64,000 bases of DNA, from NCBI GenBank assembly GCA_964612295.1, contig CAZTDY010000001.1:48032-112031 (forward strand), given 5' to 3'. The notes below the pieces were generated by a model. It searched no databases, had not been told where the DNA came from, and saw only the letters and a program-made list of their open reading frames with translations. The position numbers and the translations under genes were made by a program. Origin of the DNA: an uncultured bacterium (GTDB taxonomy: Bacteria > Eisenbacteria > RBG-16-71-46 > CAIMUX01 > WJJG01). Below are positions 2,390 through 55,580 of the stretch, piece by piece. The stretch's first letter is position 1, and each line of letters begins with the position of its first letter.

Positions 2390-3769
2390 ATGACCTTGCC
2401 GGCCCCTGTCGACCAAACGCAGGTGCCCCATTGGGGTGCCCACCCCGCGGTGCTGCTCGTGGCGCACGAGGGTCACCCGGCCGCGCGTTGGGATGAGGCC
2501 CTGCGGGACGCCGGCTACGCGGTCACCGCCGTCGCCAGTCGGGAGGCGGCCATGGAGGCCCTGGATCGGGTGACCGTGGATGTGGTGATCACCGAGCTGC
2601 GCACCGCCCGCATCCAAGGCCTGGGGATCATTGCCGTCGCCCGGCGACGCAATCCGGATGTGGGCGCCGTTCTTCTGATCGAGCCCGATCAGGAAGAGCG
2701 GGCGGTCAAGGCGCTCTCGCGAACCGTCATCGACTATCAGTCCGCTCCTTTCCGTCTCCCAAAACTGCTCGCCATCATCGCGCGGATTGAGGAACGACAG
2801 GCTCTCTGTGGCAAAGTCGCGCGGCTTACCCAACAGCTCGACCGCCGTTTCAGCTTTCCGAACTTGATCGGACAATCGACCGCGGCGGCGCGGATGCGAT
2901 CCTGGCTCAAGGAGGTGTCGCCTACCGACCTGCACGTTCTGCTGATCGGTGAGGAAGGGTCCGGGAAGCGCCTGATTGCAGGGATGCTCCACCACAACAG
3001 CCCACGCCGCAATGAAGCGCTGGTCGAACTCGACTGCGCGGCGCTACCACCCCGCCAGCTGCAACGGGAGCTTTTCGGTCCGCCGGTCCGCGCCCGAAAC
3101 CCGCGGAGGCCGGGGCGCCTGGAGAAGGCGGCCCAGGGGACGCTTCTCCTGCGGGGGGCAACCTCGCTGCCGATCGAACTGCAGGCGCGTGTCGCGGAGG
3201 TTCTCCGCACGGGAGTGCTGAGGCCCGTCTTCGGAGCGGGAGCGATCGAGATTCACCCCCGGCTTGTCCTGGCCGCCGAGGAGGATCCGCGAGGCCTGGT
3301 CGAAGACGGGCGTTTCGACCCGAGCCTCCTCGATCTGGTGGGGGAGAGCGTGCACGACCTGCTGCCGCTTCGGCACCGCCGGAGGGACATCCTGGATCTG
3401 GCGGACCACTTTCTGGCCGAGGAATCGAAGCATCTGGATACGCCTCTTCGCCTGCATCGCGCCACCCGGGATGCGCTCCTCTCCTATGACTGGCCGGGCA
3501 ATACACGCGAACTCCGCCAGGTGATTCGCGAGACGGCCAGGACCAAGCCGGGGGGAGGAGAGGTCGCCGCCGAAGACCTGCCGGAGGATATCCGCGAGCA
3601 CGGGGGGGGTGAGCGCCGGCGGCTGCCCGTGGGGACGCCGCTGGCTGAGATCGAGCGGCGGATGATCCAGGAGACACTGCGCCTGTGCGAGGGAAACCGG
3701 GAGAAGGCCGCCGCCATTTTGGGCATCGGCGTGCGGACTCTGTACCGTAAAATCAAGTCATTTAGGTAG
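2390..3769 (+). CDS. Sigma-54 enhancer-binding-protein-like regulator (NtrC/Fis family architecture) with degenerate receiver and degenerate AAA+ motifs
   Basis: The N-terminal receiver-like domain reads VLLVAHEG...DVVITELR. The central sigma54-interaction domain has LLIGEEGSGKR, ELFG and GNTRELRQVIRE. The C-terminus carries a Fis-type HTH (REKAAAILGIGVRTLYRKIKSF). GAFTGA and the Walker B DE pair are not recognisable. Confidence 0.8.
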   Translation: MTLPAPVDQTQVPHWGAHPAVLLVAHEGHPAARWDEALRDAGYAVTAVASREAAMEALDRVTVDVVITELRTARIQGLGIIAVARRRNPDVGAVLLIEPDQEERAVKALSRTVIDYQSAPFRLPKLLAIIARIEERQALCGKVARLTQQLDRRFSFPNLIGQSTAAARMRSWLKEVSPTDLHVLLIGEEGSGKRLIAGMLHHNSPRRNEALVELDCAALPPRQLQRELFGPPVRARNPRRPGRLEKAAQGTLLLRGATSLPIELQARVAEVLRTGVLRPVFGAGAIEIHPRLVLAAEEDPRGLVEDGRFDPSLLDLVGESVHDLLPLRHRRRDILDLADHFLAEESKHLDTPLRLHRATRDALLSYDWPGNTRELRQVIRETARTKPGGGEVAAEDLPEDIREHGGGERRRLPVGTPLAEIERRMIQETLRLCEGNREKAAAILGIGVRTLYRKIKSFR

Positions 3770-4054: not shown

Positions 4055-6127
4055 ATGCTCGTCCACGCGCTTGTCATGACCAGGGTGCCGGCCACTGTGG
4101 CCGTTGCCATCCTGCTCCTACTTGCCCTCGGCTTGCCGGCTTGGGGGGAAGAGGAGACTGGCTCGGAGCCACGTCTCACCGAGATGAGTCTCGAGGAGCT
4201 GATGTCGATCGAAGTGACCTCGGTCTCGCGTAAGGGTGAGCCGCTTTCGGAGGCCGCGGCGGCGGCGTTCGTTATCACCGCGGATGAGATCCGTCGTTCG
4301 GGCTACACGACGGTCGCAGATCTCCTGCGCTTGGTGCCGGGAATGCTCGTCGGCCAGATCGACGCCAATAAGTGGGCCGTGAGTGCTCGCGGATTCAACG
4401 GACAATTCGCGAACAAGCTCCTTGTCCTGATCGATGGCCGGAGCGTCTATACGCCGCTCTTTGCCGGCGTGTATTGGGATGTCCAGGATCTTATGATCGA
4501 GGACATCGAACGCATCGAGGTGATTCGCGGGCCCGGCGCCACCCTCTGGGGGGCGAACGCGGTCAACGGCGTGATCAACATCATCACCTGCGACGCGGCC
4601 GACAGCGAGGGACTCCTGGTCAGCGGAGGGGGCGGGAATGTGGAGCGGGGTTTCGGGGCGGTCTGATTCGGGCACCGGCTGAATGATCGCGCTTCTGTCC
4701 GCGTCTACGGCAAGTACTTCGATCGGGCTGGATCGGTGGATTCGCTGGGAGAGACGCAGTCCGACGAGTGGACGTCGGGACGGGGCGGGTTCCGCCTCGA
4801 CTGGGGGGTGGGTTCTCGCGACCATGTCACCGTTCAGGGCGATGCCTACCAGGGCGATATGGGGGTGGTCTACCCCTTCCCGAGCAGCCAGCCGCCCTAC
4901 CAGGTGCAGATCGAGGATGTGACCGAAGTGGCGGGCGGCAATCTCCTCACGCGTTGGTCGCGCAACCTGTCGCCGACCGCCGCCTGGGGGGTTCAGCTCT
5001 ATTTCGATCGCACCGAGCGCTCCGACGTCTTCTTCACCGAGAATCGCAGCACGGTGGATGCGGACTTCCAGCACAGCTTCTCGGTGCGGGGCAACACGCA
5101 TCTGGTCTGGGGTGCCGGGTACCGCCGCGGTGAATGGGATTTCCTGGGCACGGAATACGCGGCCACAAAGGAAGGACTGGAAAAAGGTGATGAGGGTCTC
5201 CTGAGCGGATTCGTTCAGGGAAACTGGTCGACGGCGCAGGACAGATTACGCCTGACGTTGGGCTGCAAGGTCGAACACAAAACGAACCAGGCGGGGCTGG
5301 ACCAGGATCTGACCGAGATCCAGCCGAACGGCCGGCTCCTTTGGCTGCCCAACGATCATCACGCGCTGTGGGCCTCCGTTGCCCGAGCGGTACGAACGCC
5401 CACTCAGGTGGAGATGGCCGGCAATGTCTGGCTCGGATACGTGCCCCCCGGCGTGCCGGAGAACCCCGGCCAGGTTCCTCTGATGATCACCCTGGTTGGA
5501 TCGGAGGATTACGTCAGCGAAGAACTCCTGGCCTACGAGTGTGGATATCGCTGCCAACCTCGGGATGGCCTGACCTTCGACTTCGCGGCATTCTACAACG
5601 ACTACACAAACCTCCGGGGCATGATCCAGGGTGAGGCGGAGGTGCGGATGGATCCGCAGCCGCACGCCTTTGTGCCGATCATCCTGTCGAACGCGCAGGA
5701 GGGCGAAGCCTACGGGGCCGAGCTGGCCGCCGGCTGGCAGATGCTGGAAAACCTGCGTCTGCGGGCAAGCTACTCCTACTGGGATCTGAATCTGAAGAAC
5801 GAATTGCAGGACCTGTATGACATGGGCTTCAGCGAGGACAGCACCTGGCCGCCCCATCAGGTCTTGCTGCGGGTTTCCGCAGATCTCGCCCGGAATCTCG
5901 ACCTCGATCTCGTCGGCCGTTTCGTGGACGAATTGGGCGACTTCAGGATCGAGGCGTACACGGAGCTCGATGCGCGCCTGGCCTGGCGCCCCGCGAGCGG
6001 GCTGGAGCTTGCCGTCACCGGGCGCAATCTCCTGCAAGAACAACACCCGGAGCACATCTCCGAGTTAAGCGAGGTCGGGACCGAACTGGAACGTGGAGTC
6101 TATGTTTCGGCGAGCTGGAAACACTAG
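4055..6127 (+). pseudogene. TonB-dependent outer-membrane receptor (plug plus 22-strand barrel) interrupted by a single in-frame TGA at 4664..4666
   Basis: ORF 4055..4666 encodes a signal peptide, a TonB-box-like region and the plug domain (DGRSVYTPLFAGVYWDVQDLMIEDIERIEVIRGPGATLWGANAVNGVINI). The same frame continues straight after TGA with FGHRLNDRASVRVYGKYFDRAG and then the barrel to 6127. Other genes in the window use TGA as an ordinary stop. Confidence 0.8.
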
Positions 6128-6698
6128 CCGCGCCAGAAACCTGGCGATTCGCTTCTTGATCGCACTCGCCATCGCAGGCGGTGTGAGCGGGGGTGAAGTT
6201 TGCCATGCGGGCAAGAGCTCCGTGGAGGAGGTCAAGGCGGCCTTCCTCTACAACTTCGCTCGTTTCATCGAATGGCCGGACGCGGTGTTCAACGCCCCCC
6301 AAAGTCCTTTTGTCATCGGCGTTCTGGGCGAAGATCCATTCGGCGGCGCCCTGGGCGAGATCGTCGGTCACGAGAAGGTGGGGGGGCGGCGGATAGAGAT
6401 TCGGCGCTGGGGGCAGGCTCACGAGGTGGCCGGCTGCCATCTGCTCTTTGTGAACCCCGATCTTCCCGATCGGCTGACCGTGTTGCGGAGCCTGCCGGCG
6501 GAGGGTCTGCTGACCGTGGGCGACGGCGAGGGGTTTGTGGAGAGCGGCGGAATCATCGGTCTGATCGTCGAACAGAATCGTGTGCGTTTCGAGGTGAATC
6601 TGGCCGGTGCTGAGAGAGCTGGCCTGGTCTTGAGCTCGAAGCTGCTGAACTTGGCCCGGGAGGTGGGGCACTGGCCCGTAGAAGGGGATCTGAGGTGA
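6102..6698 (+). CDS. DUF4154 (YfiR-like) periplasmic protein
   Basis: Signal peptide [27 protein letters not shown] followed by the [15 protein letters not shown] motif I associate with DUF4154/YfiR. It overlaps the receptor 3' end by 26 nt and has a GTGA overlap with the downstream kinase. Confidence 0.7.
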
Positions 6699-9151
6699 TC
6701 CGGTCATTTCTCGATCTAAGCATCCGGCGCAAGCTGACCCTGATCATCATGCTGACCAGCGTGAGTGCGCTGATCGTATTGGCGACGGCTTTCATGTCCT
6801 TTGAAAAGGTCCATCTCCAGAACGAGGCGATCAGAGCCTTGGGACTACAGGCTGATTTGGTGGGCGCCAACAGCGCGGCTGCGATTCTCTTCGACGACTT
6901 CACCTCGGCCACCGAGACGCTGTCGGCCTTGCGCGCCGATTCCCACATCGCCACGGCCTGCATCTACCGTCCGGACGGGACCATCTTCGCGACCTACTAC
7001 CCTCCCGGGATGAAGGGGGGCCGGATCCCTCCCGAGCCGGCGCCGGAGGGTTTCGAGGTCACGCCGGGCTCTCTCCACCTGTTCAGAGAAATCCGGTTCC
7101 GTGGTGAGTACGTCGGCACGCTCTACCTCTGCTCGGATCTCGAGGGCATGGCGGCCCACTTGGGACAATACACCAGGATCGCGATCACCCTCGTGGTGGC
7201 AGCGACCCTCTTGGCCCTGCTCATGTCCTTCTGGCTGCAGCGTCTTATCTCGCGGCCCATTCTGAAACTCACCGAGACGGCCACCACCGTGGCCCGGAAT
7301 CGGGACTACTCGATTCGCGCGGTCGGACATGGTGATAATGAGATCGGGAAACTCATCAACCACTTCAATGCCATGCTTGTTCAGATTCAGAAACGTGATC
7401 GCGAACTGCAGCAACATCGTGACCACCTCGAAGAGGAGGTTGGCAAACGAACCGAGGAACTCTCCCGGGCCAATGCAGAGCTGATCCAGGCCAAGGAGCG
7501 CGCCGAGGCGGCCGCGGAGGCCAAGAGCCAGTTCCTCGCCAACATGAGCCACGAGATCCGCACCCCGATGAACGGCGTGATCGGGATGACCGATCTGACC
7601 CTGGATACGGAGCTGACCGCTGAACAACGAGAGTATCTGACGCTCGCCCAGACGTCGGCGGAATCGCTGCTGCAGATCATCAATGACATTTTGGATCTCT
7701 CGAAGATCGAAGCGGGGCGGATGCGGCTCGAGCACGAGGACTTCGACCTCTGGGAGTGCCTCGAGGACACCCTCAAGTCGCTCGCGGTTCGCACGAGGGA
7801 GAAAGACCTGGAACTGGTGTGCAACATCAGCCCGCGCGTTCCGCGGCGCGTGATGGGAGACCATGGCCGCCTGCGTCAGATCGTGGTCAACCTGGTCGGC
7901 AATGCCGTCAAGTTCACGGATGAGGGCGAGATCGTCCTGAAGGTCGAACCGATTGAAATCGCGACCGACAAATGTTTCCTCACCTTCGCTGTCGAGGACA
8001 CGGGGATCGGCATCCCTGAAGACAAGCTCGCCCAGATCTTCGAGAACTTCACCCAGGCGGATGGTTCCATCACCCGCCAGTATGGCGGCACCGGGCTCGG
8101 CCTGGGGATTTCGCAGCAGCTCGTCGGGCTCATGGGTGGAACGATCAAAGTGGAGAGCATCGAGGAGAGCGGCAGCACGTTCTCCTTCACGGCGCGACTC
8201 GAACGGCCGCCCGCGATGTCGGACACAGAGGCTGACGGCACCTGCGAACGCACGGTTCTTGCGCCTGCTCATGGGCGGCACGTGCTCATCGCCGACGACT
8301 CTCCCGGGACGAGCCAGGCCCTCCGTCAGCTGTTAGAGGATTGGGGCCTTCAAGTCAGCGTTGCTTCCACACCTGCCCAGGTCGACGAACTCCTCGCCGA
8401 AGCCGGGGAGCACACGGGCATCGACCTCCTGCTCCTCGACGCCCTGCTACCACCGGGCGGGGTCCGGAGCTTCATCAAGGGGCTCGGCGGGCGGGCTGCC
8501 GACGGGGCAGACGGATCTCCGAGGGTTGTCGTGCTCCTGCCGGGTGGTGGCCACCGTTCCGCCGACGTCGCGAACTATCTCGAGGATGGAGCCGGCGAGT
8601 GCATCAGCAAGCCTATCCGCCACAGTGAGCTCTTCGAGGCGGTCAGGAATCTGCTTCTGCCGCGACTCCAGGAGCTCGGACAGAGCGCGGGGTGCGTTGG
8701 GAGCGGGCCTGCGTCGCGTGACCTGGGAGATCGCAAACAGGAAGTCCCCCCACACCAGTCGCTGCGGATCCTGGTCGCGGAGGACAACCCCGTCAATCAA
8801 CGGCTCATTGTCGAACTGCTCCGTCAGCGAGGGCACGATGTGACGGTGGTCGAGAATGGCGCGGATGTGATTGAGGCGACCCAGTCCGAGTCGTTCCAGA
8901 TCGTGCTCATGGATCTCCACATGCCGGAGATGGGCGGCATCGAGGCCACCATGGCCATCCGCGCCGAGGAGCAACGGGTGGGCGGGCACCTCCTGATCGT
9001 GGCGCTCACCGCCGATGCCGTGGTGGGTGTGCGCGAGGAGTGTTTCGCCGCCGGCATGGACGACTACCTCGACAAACCAATCAAGCCGCAGCAGCTCTTC
9101 GATGTGTTGGCCCGGTTCTTCCCCGCCCGAGAGGATGATCAGGCCGCCTAG
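6695..9151 (+). CDS. Hybrid sensor histidine kinase / response regulator: periplasmic sensor domain between two TM helices, HAMP, HisKA, HATPase_c and two receiver domains
   Basis: H-box [18 protein letters not shown]-box [12 protein letters not shown], and G-boxes DTGIGI and GGTGLGLGI. The two receivers read HVLIADDSP...LLLLDALLP...ISKP and [11 protein letters not shown]...[13 protein letters not shown]...YLDKP. Confidence 0.9.
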
Positions 9152-11578: not shown

Positions 11579-11607
11579 GCCGGCCAAGCACACAGCTGCA
11601 ATCAAGT

Positions 11608-11647
11608 GCGCCCCCGGGTCTTGACGACCTGGGGGCGCTTCTTTGTG
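11608..11647 (+). terminator. Rho-independent terminator after groEL (13-bp GC stem, 5-nt loop, T-rich tail)
   Basis: gcgcccccgggtc-ttgac-gacctgggggcgc followed by ttctttgtg. It lies between the convergent genes and may act in both directions. Confidence 0.55.
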
Positions 11648-11662
11648 CGCAGGTTGCGTTGC

Positions 11663-13735
11663 CTATCTGAGGAAGGCTATGCGACGCACCAAGTCCACGT
11701 CTTGGCCCTTCAGCTTGACGTAGTAGATCCCGGCCGAAAGCGGTGGTCCTTGAGCGGAGAGATCGTCGCAGGTGAACGCATGGCGTCCCGCCGTTGCCCA
11801 ACCCTCCTCGAGGGATCGGATGAGCCGGCCGTCGGCGCCGTACATTCGCAGCGTCCTCTGCCCCGCGCTTGGCAGTGTGTAGTGCACGCGCAGTGCCCCC
11901 GTCACTGGATTGGCGACTCGCAGTTGTGGCTTCAGCCGGAGAGCCGCCTGATCGGGGACAGCGGAAGCTCCGGTGAGCAGCCATCCCAAGCAGCGGTGTA
12001 GGCAGAGTCGCCGGTCCGTGGCGTTGTTGATTCCCTCAAAGCCGAAGCCAAAGAGAATCGCTCGATAACTGCCGGTATCAATCTTCACCGCGGCGGCGCT
12101 GCTGGGGGAGAAATTCCAGATGACCGTGGCGTCGGTGTCGGCCGGGTCGATCACCCAGGCATACTCGTGATTGTCGGCACCGTCACCACCCTCAATAGTC
12201 AGGGCGAGTCCGTCAGAAACTGGATCCCCGCTGACCGGGTCGAGCGTTCGATCCGACGTATCCGAGCCGGTTACATCCGCGTGGAGGTAGTCGTGAAACC
12301 AAATCGGGATTTCATTGGTCGGCTCGTGGAGGCCGTAAATGTAGGGCTCCCAGCCAAGGAAATGACCATGGACCAGGAGGTTTCCACCGGCGGCAAGAAA
12401 GTCGGACAGCGCCGCCCGGTCACTTGCGATCAGCGCGGGCATGAAATCGCCGGTGAGCCAGACGACCGCCGGGAACGAGCTGAGAAGCTCATCCACCGTT
12501 CCACATCCACTGCGGTCGATCAGAGCATACTGGTAACCATGGTGCTCGAGAGCATCGACCACGTACTGCTCGTAGTCGGCGGCGCCATCATCATCCACAA
12601 CGAGGACCTGCAGACCTGAGGTCATCTGCGTATAGAGGAGCGCGCGCGTATCTTCCGGAGCACCGCCCGCCTGACTCAGGGCAAGGTCGATCCCGGCGTA
12701 GCCAGGAGCTCCCGCATGGCCTTCGAGATGGAGTTCGATATACTCCCCCGGGGCGAGGGTGACCTCAGCCAGTGAACCGTAGGACATCGTTTCGCTGTGG
12801 AGGCCTACAGTCCAGTCGGGCGGCCCCACCAGTGAAGCCTGGATCGAAAAAATGTCGGTCACGTTGCCCATGTTGTAGACGCGGAAGGGAGTCATCTCGA
12901 AGTCTTCAAACGGAAGACCGAGACCGACCTGCGAATCCAAGGCGCAATAGCGAAGAGCGTAGTCCGGGATCGGCTGCGTGTTGGCGCTGGTGAGAACCCA
13001 TTGGCTGTCGTCACTCGACCGGGCCGGTCCGTCGCGCTGGATGAAGGCGACCATCGTGAGCTCTTCCTGGACCCAGGACGCGTCCACGTCGAAGTTCGCC
13101 TGCACGTTCTGCATTTCGCCCAGCATGCTCACCGTGATGGGCACCTCGTCGATCATGACCCGGTTGACGTTGTCGTGCCAATCGTCATCGCCCGTGACAT
13201 CGTAGTAGAGGTTGTCTTCGGTCAGGGCGGCGCGCAGCATCAGGCCTGCGATCTCCGGCCCGTCCTCCACGACCTCGATGTCGAGATCGATCGATCCGGT
13301 CGGCGGCGTGAAGTCATGGCTGTTGATCGTGATCTTGAAGTGGCTCGGTTCACACAGTAGCCGATCGATGCTCGGAGCAAAGGCACCCCCGTCGAGCATA
13401 TAGGAGAAGCCCCCGAGCACGGTATTGCGCGGACCGCCGACATAGACTGAAGGATATCCAAGGATATCGTAGTAGGTCTGCATGCGCGCGTCGGAGTCAG
13501 CACACCCCAAGCCTCCCGAGGTCGCGTAGTAGCTGATGGCACTCATCTCATGGCCGCGGAAGAGAACCTGATCCGCCTCAATCCCGGAGGCGGCGTTTGG
13601 ACAGCTCGGTCACCAGGTGGCCGTACAGAATTCGAGGATAGGCGATGAGGGATGCCATGCGGACGCATCACCAGCCATGAGTCCAAGGGCGAGAACGACA
13701 ATTAGAGTGGACGGAATCGCAATCCAGCGAGACAT
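11663..13735 (-). pseudogene. Secreted protein with a GATase1/ThuA-like central domain and a T9SS-type (FlgD-Ig-like) C-terminal sorting domain. The signal peptide is separated from the body by an in-frame TGA at 13610..13612.
   Basis: ATG at 13735 gives MSRWIAIPSTLIVVLALGLMAGDASA|WHPSSPILEFCTATW, then TGA, and the same frame runs into the 627-aa ORF beginning at 13546. The C-terminus LRVANPVTGALRVHYTLPSAGQRTLRMYGADGRLIRSLEEGW...GIYYVKLKGQDVDLVRRIAFLR fits the T9SS CTD pattern. Confidence 0.65.
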
Positions 13736-13890
13736 AACGCACCTCCGTCACGTGGTTGGCGGGCGTCAACCTCAGAGGAAAGATGCATTTCTAACCGCGC
13801 AGGTCGACACGTATAAGGATAGCCGAAAGGGGCCCCGGAAGACAACGGCCAGCGACCGCACGCTCAGACGAAAGGAGGTTTGCCGCGGAA

Positions 13891-26416: not shown

Positions 26417-27203
26417 CACCCACGCACATGTCCATCTTCCGCAGTATGCCGCCGACCGCGCGCAGGTGGTGGCGCGCAACTTCGCCATCGGGTTGACCGG
26501 GTTTCTGGAAGTCAATATCAGCTTCCGCGGCTGGCCATCCGTGAAACGCCTGATCGAGGGGGATCCCCGAATCGTGGGAACGGTGGGCATCCATCCCCAC
26601 GAGGCGGCGCGGGAGACCATCTCTGATCTGCGGGCGCTCGAGCCCGAACTCGATCACGGGGCGGCGATCGCGGTGGGGGAAACCGGCCTGGACACCTATC
26701 GTGACTACGCCCCGATCGAAGCCCAACAGAAGCTCTTTCGTTATCAGATCGGGTGGGCCCGGGAGACGGGTCTGCCTCTGGTCCTTCACTGCCGAAGCAC
26801 CTTCCCGGAGGTGTTCGCGGCCCTCGACGAGGAGGGTGGCGGTGAGGTGGGGGGCGTCTTCCACTGTTTCTCGGGGGGGCTGCCGGAGCTCAAGGAGGTG
26901 GTCGCGCGCGGATTCTACGTGGGCCTGGGCGGGGCGGTGACCTACTCGCCCGACCGCTGGGCGCGGATCCTTCCGCACCTCCCGCTCGACCGATTGTTGT
27001 TCGAAACCGACTGCCCCTACCTGCGCCCTGCCCCCGATCGGAAGGGACGCAATGAGCCGGCCATGGTCTTCCTGGTCGCCGAGCAGGTCGCCGAGATGTT
27101 GGGGCGCCCGGCCATAGAGCTCGAACGGCTGGCCGATGAAAACGCGGACCGCCTCTTCGGCCTGCCCGAGGCGATGGTCGGCTCCACGGGGGAGTCGTCG
27201 TGA
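26409..27203 (+). CDS. tatD: TatD family metal-dependent hydrolase
   Basis: MIDTHAHVH...GETGLDTY...LPLVLHCR...GVFHCFSGG...LLFETDCPYL. It overlaps the ricT stop. Confidence 0.9.
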   Translation: MIDTHAHVHLPQYAADRAQVVARNFAIGLTGFLEVNISFRGWPSVKRLIEGDPRIVGTVGIHPHEAARETISDLRALEPELDHGAAIAVGETGLDTYRDYAPIEAQQKLFRYQIGWARETGLPLVLHCRSTFPEVFAALDEEGGGEVGGVFHCFSGGLPELKEVVARGFYVGLGGAVTYSPDRWARILPHLPLDRLLFETDCPYLRPAPDRKGRNEPAMVFLVAEQVAEMLGRPAIELERLADENADRLFGLPEAMVGSTGESS

Positions 27204-28057
27204 AGCCCTCTGGCACGCGACAGTACCTGAAGGCCCACGGGATCACGCCCAGGAAGTCCTGGGGCCAGAATTTCCTGGTGGGCCCCGCCATCCCGGAGCG
27301 CCTGGTGCAAGGCTGGGATCTGCAGCCCGGCACGGGGGTATTTGAAATCGGAGCCGGGGCCGGAGCGCTGACGCGGCCGCTGCTCGAGCGCGGGATTCCC
27401 GTGGTGGCCGTGGAGCGGGACCGCCGGCTGTGCGGACTGCTCCGGGATCGATTCGAGGACGCTGACGACCCGGATCGATTTCGACTGATCGAGGGGGACA
27501 TCCTCGCTCTCGATCCCGCGGAGCATCTGGCGGCGATGCGAAGGGTGACGAGCTGGGTGCTGGTGGGCAATCTGCCCTATTCCATCATCACCCCGATTCT
27601 CGAATGGGCGATCGCCCACCGCGAACGCTTTGTGTGGGCTGCATTTATGGTCCAGCGCGAGTATGGGGCCCGAATGGCCGCGCGGCCCGGCACCTCGGAG
27701 TACGGCTCGCTGACGCTCTGGGCCGGGTACCATTTCAGGATCGAGAAGGAAATGGCTGTGGGAGCATCCCACTTCTGGCCGATGCCGAAAGTAGAGTCAG
27801 TGGTTCTTCGCCTGACGCCCTGGGAGACGCCTCCGGTCGAGGTCCCTTCAGCCGAGGCTTTTGAACGGGTGGTGCGGGCCGCGTTCGCGCACCGGCGGAA
27901 GATGCTCGGCGGATCGCTGGCGCGGGCTCTGGATTTGTCGCGCGAGGAGGTCCTTACCATCTTGCGCAACGCGGGCATAGACCCGAAACTGCGCGCCGAA
28001 CAATGCGATGCCAACGCTCTGGCGGCCCTGACCCGGGCCTGGGCCGAGCGAAGGTAG
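27200..28057 (+). CDS. rsmA: 16S rRNA (adenine1518/1519-N6)-dimethyltransferase
   Basis: GQNFLVGPAI...VFEIGAGAGALT...VVAVERD...GNLPYSI. GTGA overlap with tatD. Confidence 0.9.
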   Translation: MKPSGTRQYLKAHGITPRKSWGQNFLVGPAIPERLVQGWDLQPGTGVFEIGAGAGALTRPLLERGIPVVAVERDRRLCGLLRDRFEDADDPDRFRLIEGDILALDPAEHLAAMRRVTSWVLVGNLPYSIITPILEWAIAHRERFVWAAFMVQREYGARMAARPGTSEYGSLTLWAGYHFRIEKEMAVGASHFWPMPKVESVVLRLTPWETPPVEVPSAEAFERVVRAAFAHRRKMLGGSLARALDLSREEVLTILRNAGIDPKLRAEQCDANALAALTRAWAERR

Positions 28058-28075: not shown

Positions 28076-28834
28076 ATGTCACAGGGGATGATCGGGATCG
28101 TGCTCGCCGGCGGGCTGGGCTCCAGGCTCCATCCGTTGACGAAGGTCACCAACAAACACCTTGTGCCCGTGCACGACAAACCGATGATCTACTACCCGAT
28201 CCGGACTCTCGTGCAGGCCGGGATTCGTGACATCCTGCTCGTCACCGGGGGGAACAGTGCCGGCGACTTCCTCAAGCTCCTGGGCAACGGCAAGGAGTTC
28301 GGGCTCGAGCACCTCGACTATGTCTATCAGGAAGGCGAGGGCGGCATCGCCGCCGCGCTGTCCTTGGCTCGCTACTACGCCGAGGGCAAACGGATGGTGG
28401 TCATTCTCGGAGACAACATCATCGAGGACGACATCTCGGCCCATGTCGAGTCCTATCGCCGCCAGTCCGAGGGGGCGAAGATCCTCCTGAAAGAGGTGCC
28501 GGATCCGCAGCGGTTCGGCGTGGCGGAGCTCGATGGAGACCGGGTGGTGGGGATCGAGGAGAAACCCGCGAATCCCAAAACCCGCTATGCCGTCACCGGA
28601 ATCTATATGTACGATGACCGGGTTTTCTCGATCATCGATGATCTCGAACCGTCGAAGCGCGGAGAGTTGGAGATCACCGACGTCAACAACAACTATATCC
28701 GCAGCGGCAGCCTGACCTTTGACTTCCTCAAGGGATGGTGGACCGACGCGGGCACATTCGAGTCGCTTCTCAAGGCGACTCTGTTGGTGGCGAAGAAGGA
28801 AGGCGCGCTTTCGAAGCACATGTTGGAGCTCTAG
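28076..28834 (+). CDS. Sugar-phosphate nucleotidyltransferase, short RmlA/glucose-1-phosphate thymidylyltransferase-like form
   Basis: GIVLAGGLGSRLHPLTKVTNKHLVPVHDKPMIYYPIRTLVQAGIRDILLV...VILGDNI...YAVTGIYMYD. Confidence 0.8.
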   Translation: MSQGMIGIVLAGGLGSRLHPLTKVTNKHLVPVHDKPMIYYPIRTLVQAGIRDILLVTGGNSAGDFLKLLGNGKEFGLEHLDYVYQEGEGGIAAALSLARYYAEGKRMVVILGDNIIEDDISAHVESYRRQSEGAKILLKEVPDPQRFGVAELDGDRVVGIEEKPANPKTRYAVTGIYMYDDRVFSIIDDLEPSKRGELEITDVNNNYIRSGSLTFDFLKGWWTDAGTFESLLKATLLVAKKEGALSKHMLEL

Positions 28835-28837
28835 CGT

Positions 28838-30771
28838 TGGCGCATCCCCCCCGAAAGAACGGCATCCGGAGCCGGCGTTGGCCGTGGTCGCCCTTGCTCG
28901 GGCCGGCTCTCGCCCTGTTGGGGTGCGCGCTTCCCGCTCAGGCGGCCTCGGTCCTCTCACATTGGCAGATTCAGCCGGTCTACCGGACCGACTACAAGGT
29001 CAGTGAGTCGGAGAAGGACTGGAAACAGAGCCTCACTTTCGGGCGCGCGAGCGAGCGGCTCGCCTTTGACTTGCGCATGACCAGCGGCCGCCGGGAGAAT
29101 GAGCGGCGCAACAACTTCCGCCGCAACGACGACAAGATGATCCTCGGCCTCAGTCGCCCGATTCCGCTGGGCACGGTGAGCCTGGAGAGTTCTTTTCTCC
29201 GGCTCGCCGATATCACCGATCGATCGAAGAAGGCCAGCACGGACGAGACCGTGGACCTGGTGAGCAGCCTCGCTCTCCTCACGCGTGAGGATGCGTCGCT
29301 GAACCTCAAGATGAACGCCGGCTATCTGCGTGAGGTCAATACGCAGATCCGCTACGGGTCCCGGGCCTCGGTTGACTCGACCATCGCTCCGGGGTGGACC
29401 GGGGGGAGCTCCCTCAACAGCAAGTGGAATCCGGGGGACACCTTCGCGTTCACCGGTCGGTTCTTCTACGATACGACCGTTCAGGAATCGGAGACTTTCC
29501 GCACCGAGACGAGCAGCACCGATACCCTGCATACGGAGCAGAAGAACACGGATCGCTCCTTCTCCATGAACGGTGATTTCACGGTCGAATGGGACCGCTA
29601 CGAACTTCTGTCGGTGTCCTACCGGGGCGGTTTCAAGGACAGCGAATCGCAGTATTACCACGCGGCCGAAGAGGCCCAGGAGAGCAAGAGGATCGTGGAG
29701 CGGCGTTCGGTCATGCAGCTCTATGGTGAACGGAAGGACAGCTTCGGCTACGTGCTCGAATACAGCCTTCGCGAAAACGAGACCGACTTCGTCCTGCTCA
29801 ACACCGATCGGAGCAATACGTCGGACGACGTCTCGATCGGGGGGTACTACAACCTCGGCGGGATCCCTCTCCTGGGAAGCATCCCGGGAGTCAGGGGCAC
29901 AGAGTTCAGCGTGGAACTCAATTCCTCGGACGGGCAGTCCGTCACGCAGGGAACGGCGTCCTATAACACCCGGCGGCAGGAGCTCAATTCCGAGGTTCGC
30001 CGGCGGTTCGCAACAATTCTCGAACTCGTCGGCAAGTACCGCGAATCACTGACGCAGGATATGTACGGAGACGGAGCGCTGGACAAGGACCGCCTTCGGA
30101 CCGAGCTCAATGGGACCATCAAGTACACGCCGTCGCCGGGCTTCAGGGCAAACCTGACCTACACGGCCAAGTCCGAGGAATCGATCAAGATTCCGGCGGC
30201 GACCGCCGCGCAAACGCAGCAGAAAGACGACCACAACGTGAACGGGAGCTACACCTGGACGCTGCCGTTCGGCCCGATCATCAAGCAGACGATCCAGCTT
30301 GGGGCGACCTACACCTACTACGTTTTCGACGAGGACAAGAACGACCTGACCCGCAACAACCGCGTGGTCTCCGAACTCGATCTGCCGCTCTTCCCGGGCA
30401 CCATGCTGGGGATCAAACACACCTATCGGCGAAACGACAGTGGGGCCCATCAGTACGCGGAGGACCGGCGCTTCCGCACCTACGCGCCCAGCAGGAAGTC
30501 GCTTTCTCAGAACCTCAGGGTCAATCTGCGGTATGAGTTCCCGGGTGGATTCCACATTGCCGCCCAGCAGGTGATGGATCTGAATCACAACACCACGGTG
30601 AGTACGGGCAGTGTCCGCTCCACGGAGAAGTACGAGTTCACCGGCAAGGCCGGACTCAAGCGGACCTTTTCGAGCGGTCTCAATCTGACGGCTCAGATCC
30701 AACGTGTGAACAGCAACGTGAAGGACGACTTCTGGCGGGTCAATGCAGTGCTGGAGAAGACGTTCAAATGA
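28838..30771 (+). CDS. Putative outer-membrane beta-barrel protein (about 640 aa), family not recognised
   Basis: Likely TTG start giving the signal peptide MAHPPRKNGIRSRRWPWSPLLGPALALLGCALPAQA|AS. Amphipathic beta-strand periodicity runs throughout, and the C-terminus is ...FWRVNAVLEKTFK. Confidence 0.55.
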
Positions 30772-31388
30772 AGACTTCAACACGAATGCTCGTTTGCAGC
30801 CGACTCGCGGTCCTTGCGCTCCTGTGCCTGGGGTTTGCCGGGGGGTGCCTGTTCACGCCCCGGGAGCCCGAGGATCCGGGTGGGGGGGTGGCCCTTCCCG
30901 ATTGGGTCGATCCTACAACCCTGGGGGACGCCCTCGGCAATATGGAGCGAGCGTTGGAGGCCAAGTCGCTCACCAACTACGGTCAGTCCTTCAATGAGGG
31001 CGGAGAATTCGAGCTCATCTTTGACATCACCGATGAGGGTGAGCTGGGCGACCTGAGCATTTTCGAATCCTGGAGCGGCGAGCAGGAAGAGCAGCGAATG
31101 GACGGGATCGTTGCGGCCGCCGCTGCCGACGTCGAGGTCGAATGGGTGTTCACCGCCGAGACCGACTCAATAGACGAATCCGTTAGTGAGCGATATTATA
31201 AGGACTTAGGGTACAATCTCACCTTCAGCAAGGGCGGGGCCAGCGCGACCTACTCGGGCTCGGTGGACATGTGGTTCGAAGACAACGGCTCCGGGCTCTG
31301 GTTCATCTCCAGGTGGATCGACAAACGGTCCCACGCCACGAATATGACCTGGGGGTGGCTGAGAGCGAAGAACACGGTCGAGTTCTAG
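30768..31388 (+). CDS. Lipoprotein, hypothetical (206 aa)
   Basis: Signal peptide with lipobox (LALLCLGFAGGC). ATGA overlap with the upstream barrel gene. Paralogous to 31630..32262. Confidence 0.6.
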   Translation: MKTSTRMLVCSRLAVLALLCLGFAGGCLFTPREPEDPGGGVALPDWVDPTTLGDALGNMERALEAKSLTNYGQSFNEGGEFELIFDITDEGELGDLSIFESWSGEQEEQRMDGIVAAAAADVEVEWVFTAETDSIDESVSERYYKDLGYNLTFSKGGASATYSGSVDMWFEDNGSGLWFISRWIDKRSHATNMTWGWLRAKNTVEF

Positions 31389-31629
31389 GCCGGCCCTCGC
31401 CCGCTGGGCCCCGGCGTGTGCTTTCCCGCCCGCTCGCCCAACCGAAAGCGGACAAAGAGGTTGCCGAGCAGCCCCCGCGTGGGGCACGATTATTGCGCAT
31501 TGGCCGAAACCTGCCACGCGACAGTCGGTTTAGAGACACAGGATCGAGGCCGCCGCCGCATCCGTCGATAGGTGAGAATGCCCAACTAGAATAGGTTCGC
31601 CTTTCCGGCACCCTACAGGAGACTCAGTG

Positions 31630-32262
31630 ATGAAGATTCTCCCGCGTATATTGATGACTGTTCTCTTTTTGGCCCTGATGGTCCCCTTGGTCGGGTGTCC
31701 GTTCTCGACGAAGCCGAGTCCGAAGGATATCGTGGACCCGCCCGCGACCTTCAAACCCCGCACCCATCCGGACAGCCTGCTGCAGAATCTGATGCTGGCC
31801 TACGAACAGCTCATGCCGGCCGAGTTCGAGAGCCTGCTCGCGCAAGATTTCGTGTTCCAGTTTTCGGATATCGACGTGCTGGATGATGACGTGCCCTCCG
31901 ACGATCTCGCCCGGGAGGATGAGGTCGGCATTCATCAGAGGATGTTCGACAACGCATTGGTGCAGACGCTGACGCTGAGTTTTGAGTACGACATCTCCTC
32001 CCTGGAGGTCGACGAGCTGGTCTCATCGCCGGAAGACACCCTCTGGACGTTGCTCCTGACCAACGTGGATCTCTTTCTCTACGGCGGAACGCCCCAATAC
32101 CCTGACGAACCGGCCTCTTACGAGCTCGAGAATGGGGTCGAGCAGTTCTGGTTCCGCAAGAATTCCTGGACACACGACAACGGAGACCCTATATGGACTA
32201 TCGTACACTGGAAGGAGCATAACTTCGGCGGCGGCAAGCGGGAGGCCGAGCCGCTGCCCTAG
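31630..32262 (+). CDS. Lipoprotein, hypothetical (210 aa), paralog of 30768..31388
   Basis: Lipobox MVPLVGC. Shares segments with its neighbour (FELIFDITDEGELGD versus FVFQFSDIDVLDDD; SGLWFISRWIDKRS versus DPIWTIVHWKEHNF). Confidence 0.6.
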   Translation: MKILPRILMTVLFLALMVPLVGCPFSTKPSPKDIVDPPATFKPRTHPDSLLQNLMLAYEQLMPAEFESLLAQDFVFQFSDIDVLDDDVPSDDLAREDEVGIHQRMFDNALVQTLTLSFEYDISSLEVDELVSSPEDTLWTLLLTNVDLFLYGGTPQYPDEPASYELENGVEQFWFRKNSWTHDNGDPIWTIVHWKEHNFGGGKREAEPLP

Positions 32263-32276
32263 CAAGGGGCGCACGC

Positions 32277-32756
32277 TTGAGTCCGCGCAGGAAGAAGCAA
32301 AAGACAGGCCTGAGCCTTGGATGGCTCGGGCCTCTTCTTGTCTCCTTTGTGGCCGGGGGGTTGACCGTCTACTTCCTCATGAGCTCGGGGCATCTCGTTC
32401 CACTGGGCGACGACGCGGCCGACATTCACTTATCCGAGCTGCGGGACGCCAGGCTGCAGCTGCTGGAGACCCTCCTTCTGCCTCAGGCGCGGTGGACCGC
32501 CCGGGAGCTGTCGGAGCCGATCGATTGGCAGGGCAGTCTCCCGGATTCAGTCAGCCTGGTGCAGTGGAATGCCCGTATCACGCAAGGTGTGCAGAGCCTG
32601 GGGTTTGAGATCCTCTCCGGGGCCGAGGAAGTGATTCCCCGGGCCGGGCGGTGGCCGCTCCAGCGCCTCACGCTCGAAGTAGGGGAGTCCGGCTTGCCCC
32701 TGGGCCGGATCATGGTCGAGACATCACGCTCTCCGCGACTTCCCCAGGCTTTCTAA
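32277..32756 (+). CDS. Membrane-anchored hypothetical protein (basic N-terminus, single TM, then a soluble domain)
   Basis: MSPRRKKQKTGLSLGWLGPLLVSFVAGGLTVYFLM... Confidence 0.45.
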   Translation: MSPRRKKQKTGLSLGWLGPLLVSFVAGGLTVYFLMSSGHLVPLGDDAADIHLSELRDARLQLLETLLLPQARWTARELSEPIDWQGSLPDSVSLVQWNARITQGVQSLGFEILSGAEEVIPRAGRWPLQRLTLEVGESGLPLGRIMVETSRSPRLPQAF

Positions 32757-39894: not shown

Positions 39895-41565
39895 ATGCGA
39901 GGAAATCGCCCAGCATCTTATCTAAAGGCCGCGGGCCTGGTGTGCCTTCTGGCGCTCAGTCCTCTCGGAGCGCCGGCCCGCGCGCAGGAGATGCGCCGCC
40001 CCATCCAGGTGCCGACCAGCCCGGTCACGCGTGACCTGCGAACCGCGAGCGCGTTGGTCAAGCAGGGACAGATTCCCGCGGCCATCGAACTGCTCGAACC
40101 GCTCCTGGAGCGGTATCCGGGCGAATCGCGGGTCATCCGGATGCTGGGAGAGGCCTACCAGCGCATCGACGGGTACGATGAGGCGATCGAACTCTACCGG
40201 AACGAAATCAATCGAGCGGGTGGCCGGACGACCGAGTTCTGGAGCCTGATCGTCAACGCCCAACAGCGTGCCGACCGCTGCACCGATGCGGTCGATACCC
40301 TGCTCGAGGTCCTCGAGCGGGAACCCGCCTGGCTGAATCGATTCCGCGATCAGCTCGAACTGGTCGTGACGGACTCGACCTGCGGCCGCCCGGCCTTGGC
40401 CTATCTGGAGGAGCGCGCCAAAGAGAAGAGCTGCCCGCCGGCCTGGCGCGAGGCGCTGGGCAATGTCTACGTGGTTCTCGAACGGGATCAGATGGCGCTC
40501 GAGGTCTACACCGAGCTCGACCGGCAACGGCCTGATCGGGGACAGGCGATCTACAATCTTGCGCGCACGCTCACCCGCAGAGGCAAGCTCGAGGCCGGCG
40601 TGGCGGCGTACGACTCCGTGCTCAGCATATCGAACACGCGCCAGACGCTCGAACCGGCCCTCTACGAAAAGGCGGTCCTGATCGAACGCCTGGGACGTCC
40701 TGAAGAGGCGGCCGCGCTCTACACGCAGATGACCGAGCAATACCCTCACACGCAGCTCTCGATGCGGGCCGAACTTGCCAGGGCCGGGCTCTACCTGGGG
40801 CCGCTGGGGGACGTCGAAAAGGCCGAGGCCGCCTATCGCACCGTGCTCGCGGATCTCGACAGCAGGCCGCAGAACCGCGCCTTTAGGACCATTCGGGAGG
40901 ATGCTCGGCTGGCCCTGGCGGAGTGCGCGCTGAGGCTGGGGCAGTTCGACGAGGCCGACAGCGTCTACACCCGGCTGGTCAGAGAATCGAACAACAAGCG
41001 GACCAAGGAGCGGTGCGCGTTCGAGCTCGGACAGCTCCGGTTCTTCCAGGGGGATCTCGCGGGGGCCGAAGCGGCCTACTACGCGCTGACCGACGACTAC
41101 CCTCAGGGGGAGTGGGTCAACGATGCGCTCGAGCAGGCGTTGCTCATCGGGGAATTCGGGATGCGGGTCCCGGGCACGTTGACCGAGTTCGCCGAGGCGT
41201 TGTATGAACGCCGGAGGGGCGATCTGGAGGCCGCGGAGAGGATCTGTACAGAGTCGCTGGCGGACACCACGATCGTTCTTCTGCGCGACCACTTGCGTAT
41301 GCTGCAGATGCAGCTGGCCGGAGATCGGAATCGCTGGTCCGAGGCCGATTCGGTGCTGGCCGTCCTGCTCGACCAGGATCCGGACACCCGTGTCGGGGCC
41401 CGGGCCCTCCTCTGGATGGGGGGGCGCGCCGAGGCCGATCCCCTGAAGGCGGACAAGGCTCAGCAGTACTACGAAGAGGTCATTCTCCGTTATCCTGACT
41501 CATTCGAAACCCGGCAGGCGCGGGATCGCCTACAGGTTCTGCGCAGACGATCCGAGGATTCATAG
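39895..41565 (+). CDS. Secreted tetratricopeptide-repeat protein
   Basis: Signal peptide LVCLLALSPLGAPARAQE. Multiple TPR-like helical pairs (AYQRIDGYDEAIELYRNEI, AIYNLARTLTRRGKLEAGVAAYDSVL, ALYEKAVLIERLGRPEEAAALY). Confidence 0.85.
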   Translation: MRGNRPASYLKAAGLVCLLALSPLGAPARAQEMRRPIQVPTSPVTRDLRTASALVKQGQIPAAIELLEPLLERYPGESRVIRMLGEAYQRIDGYDEAIELYRNEINRAGGRTTEFWSLIVNAQQRADRCTDAVDTLLEVLEREPAWLNRFRDQLELVVTDSTCGRPALAYLEERAKEKSCPPAWREALGNVYVVLERDQMALEVYTELDRQRPDRGQAIYNLARTLTRRGKLEAGVAAYDSVLSISNTRQTLEPALYEKAVLIERLGRPEEAAALYTQMTEQYPHTQLSMRAELARAGLYLGPLGDVEKAEAAYRTVLADLDSRPQNRAFRTIREDARLALAECALRLGQFDEADSVYTRLVRESNNKRTKERCAFELGQLRFFQGDLAGAEAAYYALTDDYPQGEWVNDALEQALLIGEFGMRVPGTLTEFAEALYERRRGDLEAAERICTESLADTTIVLLRDHLRMLQMQLAGDRNRWSEADSVLAVLLDQDPDTRVGARALLWMGGRAEADPLKADKAQQYYEEVILRYPDSFETRQARDRLQVLRRRSEDS

Positions 41566-54905: not shown

Positions 54906-55017
54906 CCATACCTAACCATCCTTGCGGAGGGTGGGTTTTGGGTGCGTGAGCCTTCTGATCGCTCGCCACCTCGGGGTTAGTATGGCCACTTTGGCCTGTT
55001 CAAAGGACGTTGCGGAT

Positions 55018-55488
55018 ATGAGGCGAACCTTCTGTCTGACGCTGGCCTTGTCTCTTCTGACAGTCTGCGGGCTTGGTTGCACGAAACTGGTGCCCGTCGA
55101 AGGCTCGGTTCTCGATGAACGGAAAGCGTCGGTGATCACGTTCACGGATGGGTCCTCCATCCGCGGCAAGATCGACATTGACGAGGACGTGGTCGTCACC
55201 AAGGGCGGCGTCGTCTATGCCGGCATCATCTACGATCTGACCGACGAGGAGATCGTGCTCGATGAATGTCGTTATCTGCATGCTCATGAGGGCTACGACG
55301 CAGGACGGAGCCGCCTGGCCGAAGCGCGCGTCGACGTCCAGCAGGAGCTGATGAGCTTCGAATTCCGGCGCGACGAGATCGAGCGGGTCGAGCGCGTGCG
55401 GGTGGATGCGATGAAGACTGCCACGCGCACCGCCTTCTGGACGTTGTCCGGCGTGGTCTCGGTCTTCCTTCTCCAGGAACATTCCTAA
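55018..55488 (+). CDS. Putative lipoprotein, hypothetical
   Basis: MRRTFCLTLALSLLTVCGLGC signal and lipobox-like N-terminus. An alternative upstream TTG start at 54922 exists. Confidence 0.5.
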   Translation: MRRTFCLTLALSLLTVCGLGCTKLVPVEGSVLDERKASVITFTDGSSIRGKIDIDEDVVVTKGGVVYAGIIYDLTDEEIVLDECRYLHAHEGYDAGRSRLAEARVDVQQELMSFEFRRDEIERVERVRVDAMKTATRTAFWTLSGVVSVFLLQEHS

Positions 55489-55580
55489 GATTTGAACGCC
55501 CCGCTGGATGAGCCGCGGGATGGGAACGGATCGGCAAACGGGACAAGAGGATTCGAATCGCTATGCTAAGGAGTCGATCG

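What the first reader, a model, noticed from the sequence alone, without database searches (positions are those of the whole stretch)
4664..4666. In-frame TGA splits an otherwise complete TonB-dependent receptor between plug and barrel
Seen in the sequence. ORF 4055..4666 (signal peptide plus plug) and ORF 4736..6127 (barrel) are in the same frame. The only interruption is TGA at 4664..4666. Translation straight through gives ...NVERGFGAV*FGHRLNDRASVRVYGKYFDRAG..., which reads like the conserved plug-barrel junction of TonB-dependent receptors; a codon such as CGA (Arg) or TGG would restore it. TGA is an ordinary stop for other genes here (for example 6093..6698, hflX, ftsE).

The options are a recent nonsense mutation (pseudogene), a sequencing or assembly error, or programmed read-through. 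A second secreted-protein gene in the window (13610..13612) has the same kind of single in-frame TGA, so two in 10 kb is worth a look.
Basis: seen in the sequence. Interest (0 to 1): 0.5.

Follow-up and report, generated by a model that had tools for sequence, protein, structure and literature searches.

The report
Recently broken TonB-dependent receptor gene
One base change has replaced a nearly invariant arginine codon with a stop codon in an otherwise intact outer-membrane receptor gene, so this is an ordinary young pseudogene; the second in-frame TGA nearby is a real selenocysteine codon and has nothing to do with it.

Summary
The TGA at 4664..4666 is real. It is the only interruption of a 690-codon TonB-dependent receptor gene (4055..6127).

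It is not an assembly error. The same 203-residue truncated product is encoded on 24 contigs from at least five samples, with three slightly different consensus sequences.

It is not a recoding site. The column is Arg in 117 of 119 protein homologs and in 67 of 68 metagenome loci retrieved by tblastn. None of them has TGA or Cys there. The closest ortholog (82% aa, syntenic) has AGA, one A>T change away. No SECIS-like hairpin follows the TGA.

The break is young. The downstream barrel still looks selected (dN/dS 0.17, plug 0.14, neighbours 0.05-0.20) and shows no rate acceleration.

Best reading: a recent nonsense mutation, fixed in a nearly clonal Eisenbacteria-like population.

The "second TGA" (13610..13612, minus strand) is a different thing. 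It replaces the first Cys of a conserved TATW-C-x-x-C-P motif. It is TGA in 16 related genomes and TGC/TGT in others. A covarying hairpin follows it. It is therefore a selenocysteine codon in an Omp28-related secreted protein. Two TGAs in 10 kb is a coincidence of unlike things.

The parts
4055..4663 (+). 5' part of the receptor gene (203 codons): signal-peptide-like N-terminus, TonB-box/plug domain and the first barrel strand(s). This is all that normal termination at the TGA would produce.
   Evidence: Translation. Pfam Plug PF07715 at residues 64-173, E 4.4e-22. The signal peptide is read by eye from MLVHALVMTRVPATVAVAILLLLALGLPAWG and was not tested with a tool.
4664..4666 (+). Premature TGA stop codon in place of a nearly invariant Arg (ortholog codon AGA).
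   Evidence: Arg 117/119, Gln 2; AGA in L002-L004, TGA in L001; Arg 67/68 in tblastn-retrieved loci; codons CGC 36, CGT 16, CGG 8, CGA 5, AGA 2.
4667..6127 (+). 3' remainder of the receptor gene (486 codons plus TAG): the rest of the 22-strand beta-barrel. It is still open and conserved but has no signal peptide of its own.
   Evidence: Pfam PF00593, E 1.9e-26. dN/dS 0.166 against L002. No excess of lineage-specific changes.
6156..6698 (+). Downstream operon partner, a YfiR/HmsC-like DUF4154 protein. It is intact.
   Evidence: Pfam PF13689, E 1.3e-43. Same gene order in L002. dN/dS 0.20.
6695..9151 (+). Downstream operon partner, a CHASE8-HAMP hybrid histidine kinase with receiver domains. It is intact.
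   Evidence: Pfam hits. Synteny. dN/dS 0.136.

Best explanation
The gene at 4055..6127 encodes a TonB-dependent outer-membrane receptor close to the TOL_0244-type family. It heads a conserved cluster of receptor, YfiR-like protein and CHASE8 histidine kinase. In this lineage a single base substitution turned the codon of a nearly invariant barrel arginine into TGA. The most parsimonious change is AGA>TGA; CGA>TGA is the alternative.

Translation should therefore stop after 203 residues. That would release a periplasmic plug fragment. The remaining barrel has no signal peptide, so a fragment translated on its own could not be exported and assembled. The receptor is thus inactivated, making this a young pseudogene.

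The mutation is fixed in every sampled member of a nearly clonal population. It is recent enough that the downstream 486 codons have no further damage.

Shown: the stop, its reproducibility across assemblies, the Arg column, the intact orthologs, and the lack of SECIS and of conservation of the TGA. Inferred: loss of function, the ancestral codon, and recency. Whether the loss was neutral or selected (for example escape from a phage or bacteriocin that uses the receptor) is speculation.
For: (1) There is one in-frame TGA between the Plug and barrel domains.
(2) Orthologs are single genes. P0001 is 690 aa, 82% identical and in the same gene order, and has AGA at the site.
(3) The column is Arg in 117/119 aligned homologs. 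It is Arg in 67/68 metagenome loci found by tblastn, a route that does not depend on ORF calls. None of those junction segments has an in-frame stop.
(4) The exact truncated product is on 24 contigs from JGI 3300013118, 3300008954 and 3300009320, ENA ERZ23498639 and Logan SRR8062351. The loci are 99.9-100% identical to the window, and two of them carry SNPs elsewhere, so at least three distinct consensus sequences share the TGA. No intact allele above 82% identity appears in the protein collection.
(5) Recency: dN/dS is 0.14 for the plug and 0.17 for the barrel, against 0.05-0.20 for ten neighbouring genes. The relative-rate test shows no acceleration, e.g. barrel 16 vs 18 and 20 vs 15 unique changes. 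If the barrel has been neutral since the TGA arose, the chance of no new stop falls below 5% once more than about 15% of the branch has elapsed.
(6) TGA works as a stop elsewhere in the window, and orthologs end at the same residues.
(7) There is no SECIS-like hairpin. The fold z-score is +0.28, no stem of 5 bp or more lies in the 16-37 nt zone, and the lineage's SECIS model does not hit.
Against: The barrel shows no sign of decay and the downstream operon genes are intact. That is what a still-translated gene would also look like, and recency and continued function cannot be told apart from sequence alone.

The samples carrying the TGA may come from one site or time series, so their independence as populations is limited. 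They are independent as sequencing libraries and assemblies.

No read-level data, expression data or proteomics were available. The organism evidently uses UGA for selenocysteine at another gene, so it has UGA-decoding machinery.
Confidence: 0.85

Rival explanations
1. Functional stop-codon read-through. The UGA is decoded at a useful rate, for example by near-cognate tRNA-Trp, so a full-length receptor is still made, possibly at a reduced or regulated level.
For: The 486 downstream codons are open and look selected. The allele is fixed in all sampled contigs. UGA is the leakiest stop codon in well-studied bacteria (my own knowledge, not tested here).
Against: The TGA is unique to this lineage and absent from 119 plus 68 relatives. 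No stimulatory structure follows it. The next base is U, and as far as I recall from E. coli work UGA-U is an efficient termination context. The replaced Arg is nearly invariant, so Trp or another residue there may not be tolerated. The near-clonality of the population explains the lack of decay without invoking function.
Confidence: 0.07
2. Selenocysteine insertion. The TGA encodes Sec, as in the recently described Sec-containing TonB-dependent receptors.
For: The lineage uses Sec, as shown by the Omp28-like gene in the same window. Sec-containing TonB-dependent receptors exist: NCBIfam NF049944-NF049947, PMC12013277 and PMC13188914.
Against: Homologs have Arg, never Cys, at the column. No relative has TGA there. 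No SECIS-like hairpin is present and model R1 gives no hit. The protein scores 26-52 bits against the Sec-type receptor families, whose cut-offs are 700-850. Its context GFGAV-U-FG resembles none of their motifs (PCPU, CU, FCYXU, PUIUD).
Confidence: 0.01
3. Sequencing or assembly error. The true codon is a sense codon.
For: MAG and metagenome assemblies do contain consensus errors. One related contig (L001) has a suspicious cluster of four G>T / C>A differences within 16 bp.
Against: The same TGA is in 24 contigs from at least five samples, assembled by different pipelines (JGI, ENA, Logan), including three distinct consensus sequences. No intact allele exists in the collection.
Confidence: 0.03
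4. A naturally split receptor. Plug and barrel are normally separate genes that assemble after translation.
For: Two ORFs are called separately in public annotations.
Against: All 119 close homologs and the syntenic ortholog are single genes. The second ORF has no signal peptide and, if started at GTG 4736, lacks the sequence between 4667 and 4735 that is conserved in homologs.
Confidence: 0.01

Closest known systems
Single-nonsense-mutation pseudogenes of bacterial outer-membrane receptor genes
   Same: One premature stop in an otherwise intact, recently selected gene. Intact orthologs exist in relatives. The neighbouring operon genes are untouched.
   Different: Nothing essential. Here the allele is seen only in uncultured, nearly clonal metagenome populations, so loss of function is inferred and not measured.
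TOL_0244 family TonB-dependent receptor (NCBIfam NF053590)
   Same: With Arg restored, the protein aligns end to end (profile positions 2-603 of 604) at 602.8 bits. Plug and barrel domains are present.
   Different: The score is just below the family cut-off of 645, and the gene is interrupted by TGA.
Selenocysteine-containing TonB-dependent receptors (NCBIfam NF049944-NF049947; deep-Sep paper PMC12013277)
   Same: A TonB-dependent receptor gene with an in-frame TGA in a Sec-using organism.
   Different: Those families have Cys-containing homologs at the Sec site and TGA-containing homologs in other species. Here the site is Arg, the TGA is unique and there is no SECIS. Scores are 26-52 bits against cut-offs of 700-850.
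Omp28-related selenoprotein / hypothetical protein GOS_C (NCBIfam NF045500, UxxC motif; PMC13188914). This applies to the second TGA only.
   Same: Same UxxC motif and Omp28-like domain. Cys/Sec pairs across relatives and a hairpin after the UGA.
   Different: The match is only 27.9 bits against a cut-off of 200. The window protein is about 690 aa, with extra central domains and a C-terminal FlgD-Ig domain. It is therefore a distant relative and not a member by NCBI's threshold.

Membership tests
TonB-dependent receptor | N-terminal plug domain (PF07715) | tested here: met
   E 4.4e-22, residues 64-173.
TonB-dependent receptor | C-terminal beta-barrel domain (PF00593) | tested here: met
   E 1.9e-26 in the part after the TGA.
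TonB-dependent receptor | Plug and barrel in one uninterrupted polypeptide behind one signal peptide | tested here: not met
   TGA at codon 204. Orthologs are uninterrupted.
TOL_0244 family receptor (NF053590) | Score at or above the curated cut-off (645 bits) | tested here: not met
   602.8 bits with Arg put in place of the stop. This is a near miss, so the protein is a close relative.
Bacterial selenoprotein gene (applied to TGA 4664) | Cys in homologs at the UGA column (Cys/Sec pair) | tested here: not met
   Arg 117/119 and 67/68, the rest Gln, and no Cys.
Bacterial selenoprotein gene (applied to TGA 4664) | TGA conserved at the same column in other Sec-using relatives | tested here: not met
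   no other locus has TGA. The closest ortholog has AGA.
Bacterial selenoprotein gene (applied to TGA 4664) | SECIS hairpin shortly downstream of the UGA | tested here: not met
   z +0.28; no stem of 5 bp or more with its loop 16-37 nt downstream; no hit of model R1.
Sec-type TonB-dependent receptors (NF049944-NF049947) | Score at or above the family cut-offs (700-850 bits) and the PCPU / CU / FCYXU / PUIUD motif | tested here: not met
   26-52 bits, covering the plug region only. The context is GFGAV*FG.
Pseudogene (recent) | Disabling change relative to intact orthologs | tested here: met
Pseudogene (recent) | Relaxed selection or further decay downstream of the lesion | tested here: not met
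   none is detectable. That is expected if the lesion is young, with an upper bound of about 15% of the branch.
Pseudogene (recent) | No full-length product made | not testable with these tools
   Needs proteomics or ribosome profiling.
Bacterial selenoprotein gene (applied to the second TGA, 13610..13612 minus strand) | Cys/Sec pair, TGA conserved in relatives, and a covarying hairpin after the UGA | tested here: met
   the TATW-[U/C]-xx-C motif has TGA in 16 loci and TGC/TGT in more than 20; 98.5% of cells paired, 3 of 6 pairs with compensatory changes.
Omp28-related selenoprotein (NF045500) (applied to the second gene) | Score at or above the curated cut-off (200 bits) | tested here: not met
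   27.9 bits. The UxxC motif is the same, but the relationship is distant.

The most novel reading that the evidence does not exclude
The UGA at 4664 is not a dead end. In this Sec-using, TAG-preferring lineage it is read through at a physiologically meaningful rate, by near-cognate decoding or SECIS-independent insertion. The receptor would then be made at a low or condition-dependent level, and the fixed allele would be a regulatory variant rather than a loss.
Probability: 0.04. Interest if true: 0.55.

Novelty: already known. Interest (0 to 1): 0.12.

Why it matters
The main value is for annotation. The receptor should be marked as a pseudogene, one gene with an internal stop, rather than as two proteins, which is how it currently sits in public protein collections.

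It also shows that two in-frame TGAs close together need not share a cause. One is a lesion and the other is a selenocysteine codon.

The side result has some practical weight. Most database entries of the Omp28-like family from Eisenbacteria and relatives are N-terminally truncated because gene callers stop at the Sec codon. They therefore lose the signal peptide and the redox motif.

Tried and rejected
(1) Rfam at gathering thresholds and ARAGORN over the whole window found nothing: no tRNA-Sec and no known recoding element.

(2) Pfam on about 48 crude gene calls found no selA, selB or selD in the window. Sec use by the organism therefore rests on the Omp28-like gene alone.

(3) GC3-based screening for other genes split by one stop was too unspecific, because antisense frames also have high GC3. 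I replaced it with a greedy gene list plus Pfam. The same-frame neighbours 27200..28057 / 28076..28834 (KsgA, nucleotidyl transferase) and 39895..41565 / 41575..42870 (TPR protein, unknown) are separate genes divided by TAG.

(4) A covariance model of the lineage's SECIS (R1) hit only its own training site. The model is gene-specific, so this negative is weak on its own.

(5) A literature search for the sample accessions, and for Eisenbacteria plus selenocysteine, found nothing. The habitat remains unknown.

(6) The genome-contig scan did not return the window's own genome. Its sequence (AILFGFGFEG) does not fit the search pattern used. The Eisenbacteria assignment therefore rests on the nearest relatives' names only.

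(7) My first regex for reading the Arg column in the metagenome loci caught only 27 of 80. An alignment-based reading replaced it and caught 68 of 80.

Full report
**Observation**

Reading 4055..6127 in one frame gives 690 codons with exactly one internal stop. It is TGA at 4664..4666 (codon 204), in the context ...GGGGNVERGFGAV*FGHRLNDRASVRVYGKYFDRAG..., and the gene ends with TAG at 6125..6127. The mechanical ORFs 4055..4666 and 4736..6127 share the frame.

Pfam places a Plug domain (PF07715, E 4e-22) before the stop and the TonB barrel (PF00593, E 2e-26) after it. With Arg written in place of the stop, the protein aligns end to end with NCBIfam NF053590 (TOL_0244 family TonB-dependent receptor) at 602.8 bits, just under the cut-off of 645.

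Aligned to BtuB, codon 204 falls near BtuB residue 155. From my memory of the BtuB structure (plug to about residue 132, barrel from about 137) that is the second barrel strand. The break is therefore slightly inside the barrel, not exactly at the junction.

**What occupies the column in relatives**

A search of the large protein collection returned thousands of full-length homologs. In an alignment of the best 120, the column is Arg in 117 and Gln in 2. The one remaining row is the window's own barrel ORF, which has a gap there. Cys never occurs.

Protein collections hide genes split by a stop. I therefore also fetched DNA loci from metagenomes by tblastn and read the codon directly. Among 68 alignable loci there are 67 Arg (CGC 36, CGT 16, CGG 8, CGA 5, AGA 2) and 1 Gln. 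None has an in-frame stop in the 95-residue junction segment.

The closest ortholog, P0001, is 690 aa and 82% identical. It lies in the same gene order: sigma-54 activator, receptor, DUF4154, CHASE8 histidine kinase, groES/groEL, glnA, hflX. It has AGA at the site. One A>T transversion, or C>T from CGA, therefore accounts for the TGA. The two halves are not normally separate genes.

**Is the TGA real?**

The exact 203-residue truncated product is encoded on 24 contigs. These include JGI samples 3300013118 (a 218,924-bp contig), 3300008954 and 3300009320, ENA ERZ23498639 and Logan SRR8062351.

Five fetched loci are 99.9-100% identical to the window and all carry the TGA. One differs at 4931/4935/4936/4946 and 9141, and another at 6623. 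So at least three distinct consensus sequences from different libraries and assemblers share the stop.

No intact allele closer than 82% exists among the scored clusters. The clusters of the two half-ORFs contain only half-length members. A consensus error is therefore very unlikely. The population is also nearly clonal.

**Is it recoding?**

TGA is a working stop in this genome. 17 of about 48 crude gene calls end in TGA, many in NTGA overlaps with the next start. The orthologs of three such genes in L002 end at the same residue.

The 60 nt after TGA 4664 fold no better than shuffled sequence (z +0.28). There is no uninterrupted stem of 5 bp or more with its loop 16-37 nt downstream. The intact ortholog folds differently there.

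Sec-containing TonB-dependent receptors do exist: NCBIfam NF049944-NF049947, PMC12013277 and PMC13188914. They are defined by Cys/Sec pairs and by TGA-containing homologs. This gene has neither, and it scores only 26-52 bits against cut-offs of 700-850.

**Age of the lesion**

Against L002, dN/dS is 0.14 for the plug and 0.17 for the barrel. That lies inside the range of ten neighbouring genes, 0.05-0.20, at dS of about 0.35-0.7.

Relative-rate tests with four outgroups show no excess of window-specific amino-acid changes in the barrel: 16 vs 18, 20 vs 15, 20 vs 14 and 16 vs 16. At columns conserved at 90% or more, the window deviates 9 times and the intact ortholog 11 times.

About 3.9% of possible substitutions in the barrel would create a stop. 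If the barrel has drifted neutrally since the TGA arose, the chance of no second stop drops below 5% once more than about 15% of the window's branch has elapsed.

So the mutation is recent, or the barrel is still under selection. Near-clonality makes recency a sufficient explanation.

**Mechanism and consequence (inference)**

Termination at codon 204 would yield a signal-peptide-bearing plug fragment. The rest of the barrel has no export signal, so even re-initiation, for example at GTG 4736, could not give an assembled receptor. I conclude the receptor is inactivated.

The downstream YfiR-like and histidine-kinase genes are intact. Whether loss was neutral or favoured, for example by escape from a phage or bacteriocin that docks on the receptor, cannot be tested here.

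**The second TGA is a different phenomenon**

The gene on the minus strand (13735..11663) reads MSRW...EFCTATW*PSCPNAASGIEADQ.... Full-length homologs have TATW-C-x-x-C-P at exactly this place, and two thirds of the database homologs are N-terminally truncated just after it.

In 80 loci from GTDB species representatives (Candidatus Eisenbacteria, Krumholzibacteriia, Thermoanaerobaculales and others) the column is TGA in 16. It is TGC/TGT in more than 20.

In the window and ten Eisenbacteria loci the UGA is followed 17-18 nt later by a 6-7 bp hairpin with an almost invariant CGGGAUU loop (one locus has CGGGAUC). In the window it lies at 13573..13593 on the minus strand. 98.5% of cells pair, and 3 of 6 pairs show compensatory double changes. 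Slid controls pair at only 26-42%. Cys-form homologs lack the hairpin.

This is a selenocysteine codon with a SECIS element in a UxxC redox motif. NCBIfam NF045500 (Omp28-related selenoprotein, called GOS_C in PMC13188914, UxxC) is the nearest named family. It matches at only 27.9 bits against a cut-off of 200. The protein also carries weak Omp28 and FlgD-Ig matches, both below Pfam's cut-offs.

The syntenic relative L002 lacks this gene between groEL and glnA.

**Verdict**

The best explanation is an ordinary, young nonsense-mutation pseudogene of a TonB-dependent receptor, fixed in a nearly clonal population related to Eisenbacteria (confidence about 0.85). Read-through (0.07), error (0.03), Sec (0.01) and a natural split (0.01) are the rivals.

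The coincidence of two TGAs in 10 kb dissolves, because one is a lesion and the other a bona fide Sec codon. Interest in the finding itself is low.

Noticed in passing
window 11663..13735 (minus strand); Sec codon 13610..13612; hairpin 13573..13593: A secreted protein of about 690 aa, with Omp28-like and FlgD-Ig parts, has UGA in place of the first Cys of a conserved TATW-C-x-x-C-P motif. A covarying SECIS-like hairpin with loop CGGGAUU follows. The same column is TGA in 16 related genomes and TGC/TGT in others. It is a selenoprotein, only distantly related to NCBIfam NF045500 (27.9 bits, cut-off 200). Public gene calls start at Met 13546 and miss the signal peptide and redox motif.
   Followed up: yes
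protein ids P0121-P0144; loci L010-L047, L074, L076: About two thirds of database entries of this Omp28-like family are N-terminally truncated just after the UxxC position. Evidently gene callers stop at the Sec codon. A second group (L039, L040, L045, L047, L074) has TGA with a different downstream hairpin.
   Followed up: partly
L016 about 2435..2443: One relative reads TATW-TGA-GGC-TAG-TGC, so it has a TAG where the others have Tyr (TAC) two codons after the Sec codon. This may be a lesion or an error in that MAG.
   Followed up: no
window 11606..13890 versus L002 17511..17577: The whole Omp28-like selenoprotein gene is absent from the otherwise syntenic relative (84% nucleotide identity). 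There groEL is followed directly by glnA. This is a lineage-specific gain or loss.
   Followed up: partly
whole window (crude gene list): TAG is the commonest stop codon (24 of about 48 genes; TGA 17, TAA 7) in a 63% G+C sequence. More than half of the TGA stops sit in 4-nt NTGA overlaps with the next gene's start.
   Followed up: no
window 4931, 4935, 4936, 4946 versus L001/L008 (JGI 3300009320): Four G>T / C>A differences lie within 16 bp of the barrel, three of them amino-acid changing (A>S, G>V, L>I), in an otherwise identical 5.9-kb contig. This looks like either a small recombination patch or damage-type sequencing errors in that assembly.
   Followed up: partly
window 4055..9151: The cluster of TonB-dependent receptor, YfiR-like DUF4154 protein and CHASE8/HAMP hybrid histidine kinase is conserved in the relative L002 and sits behind a sigma-54 activator gene (2390..3769). 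Its ligand and signalling role are unknown.
   Followed up: no
window 28735..32756, 41575..42870, 54922..57143: Several sizeable ORFs (678, 206, 211, 159, 431, 188 and 526 aa) have no Pfam match at E <= 0.001.
   Followed up: no
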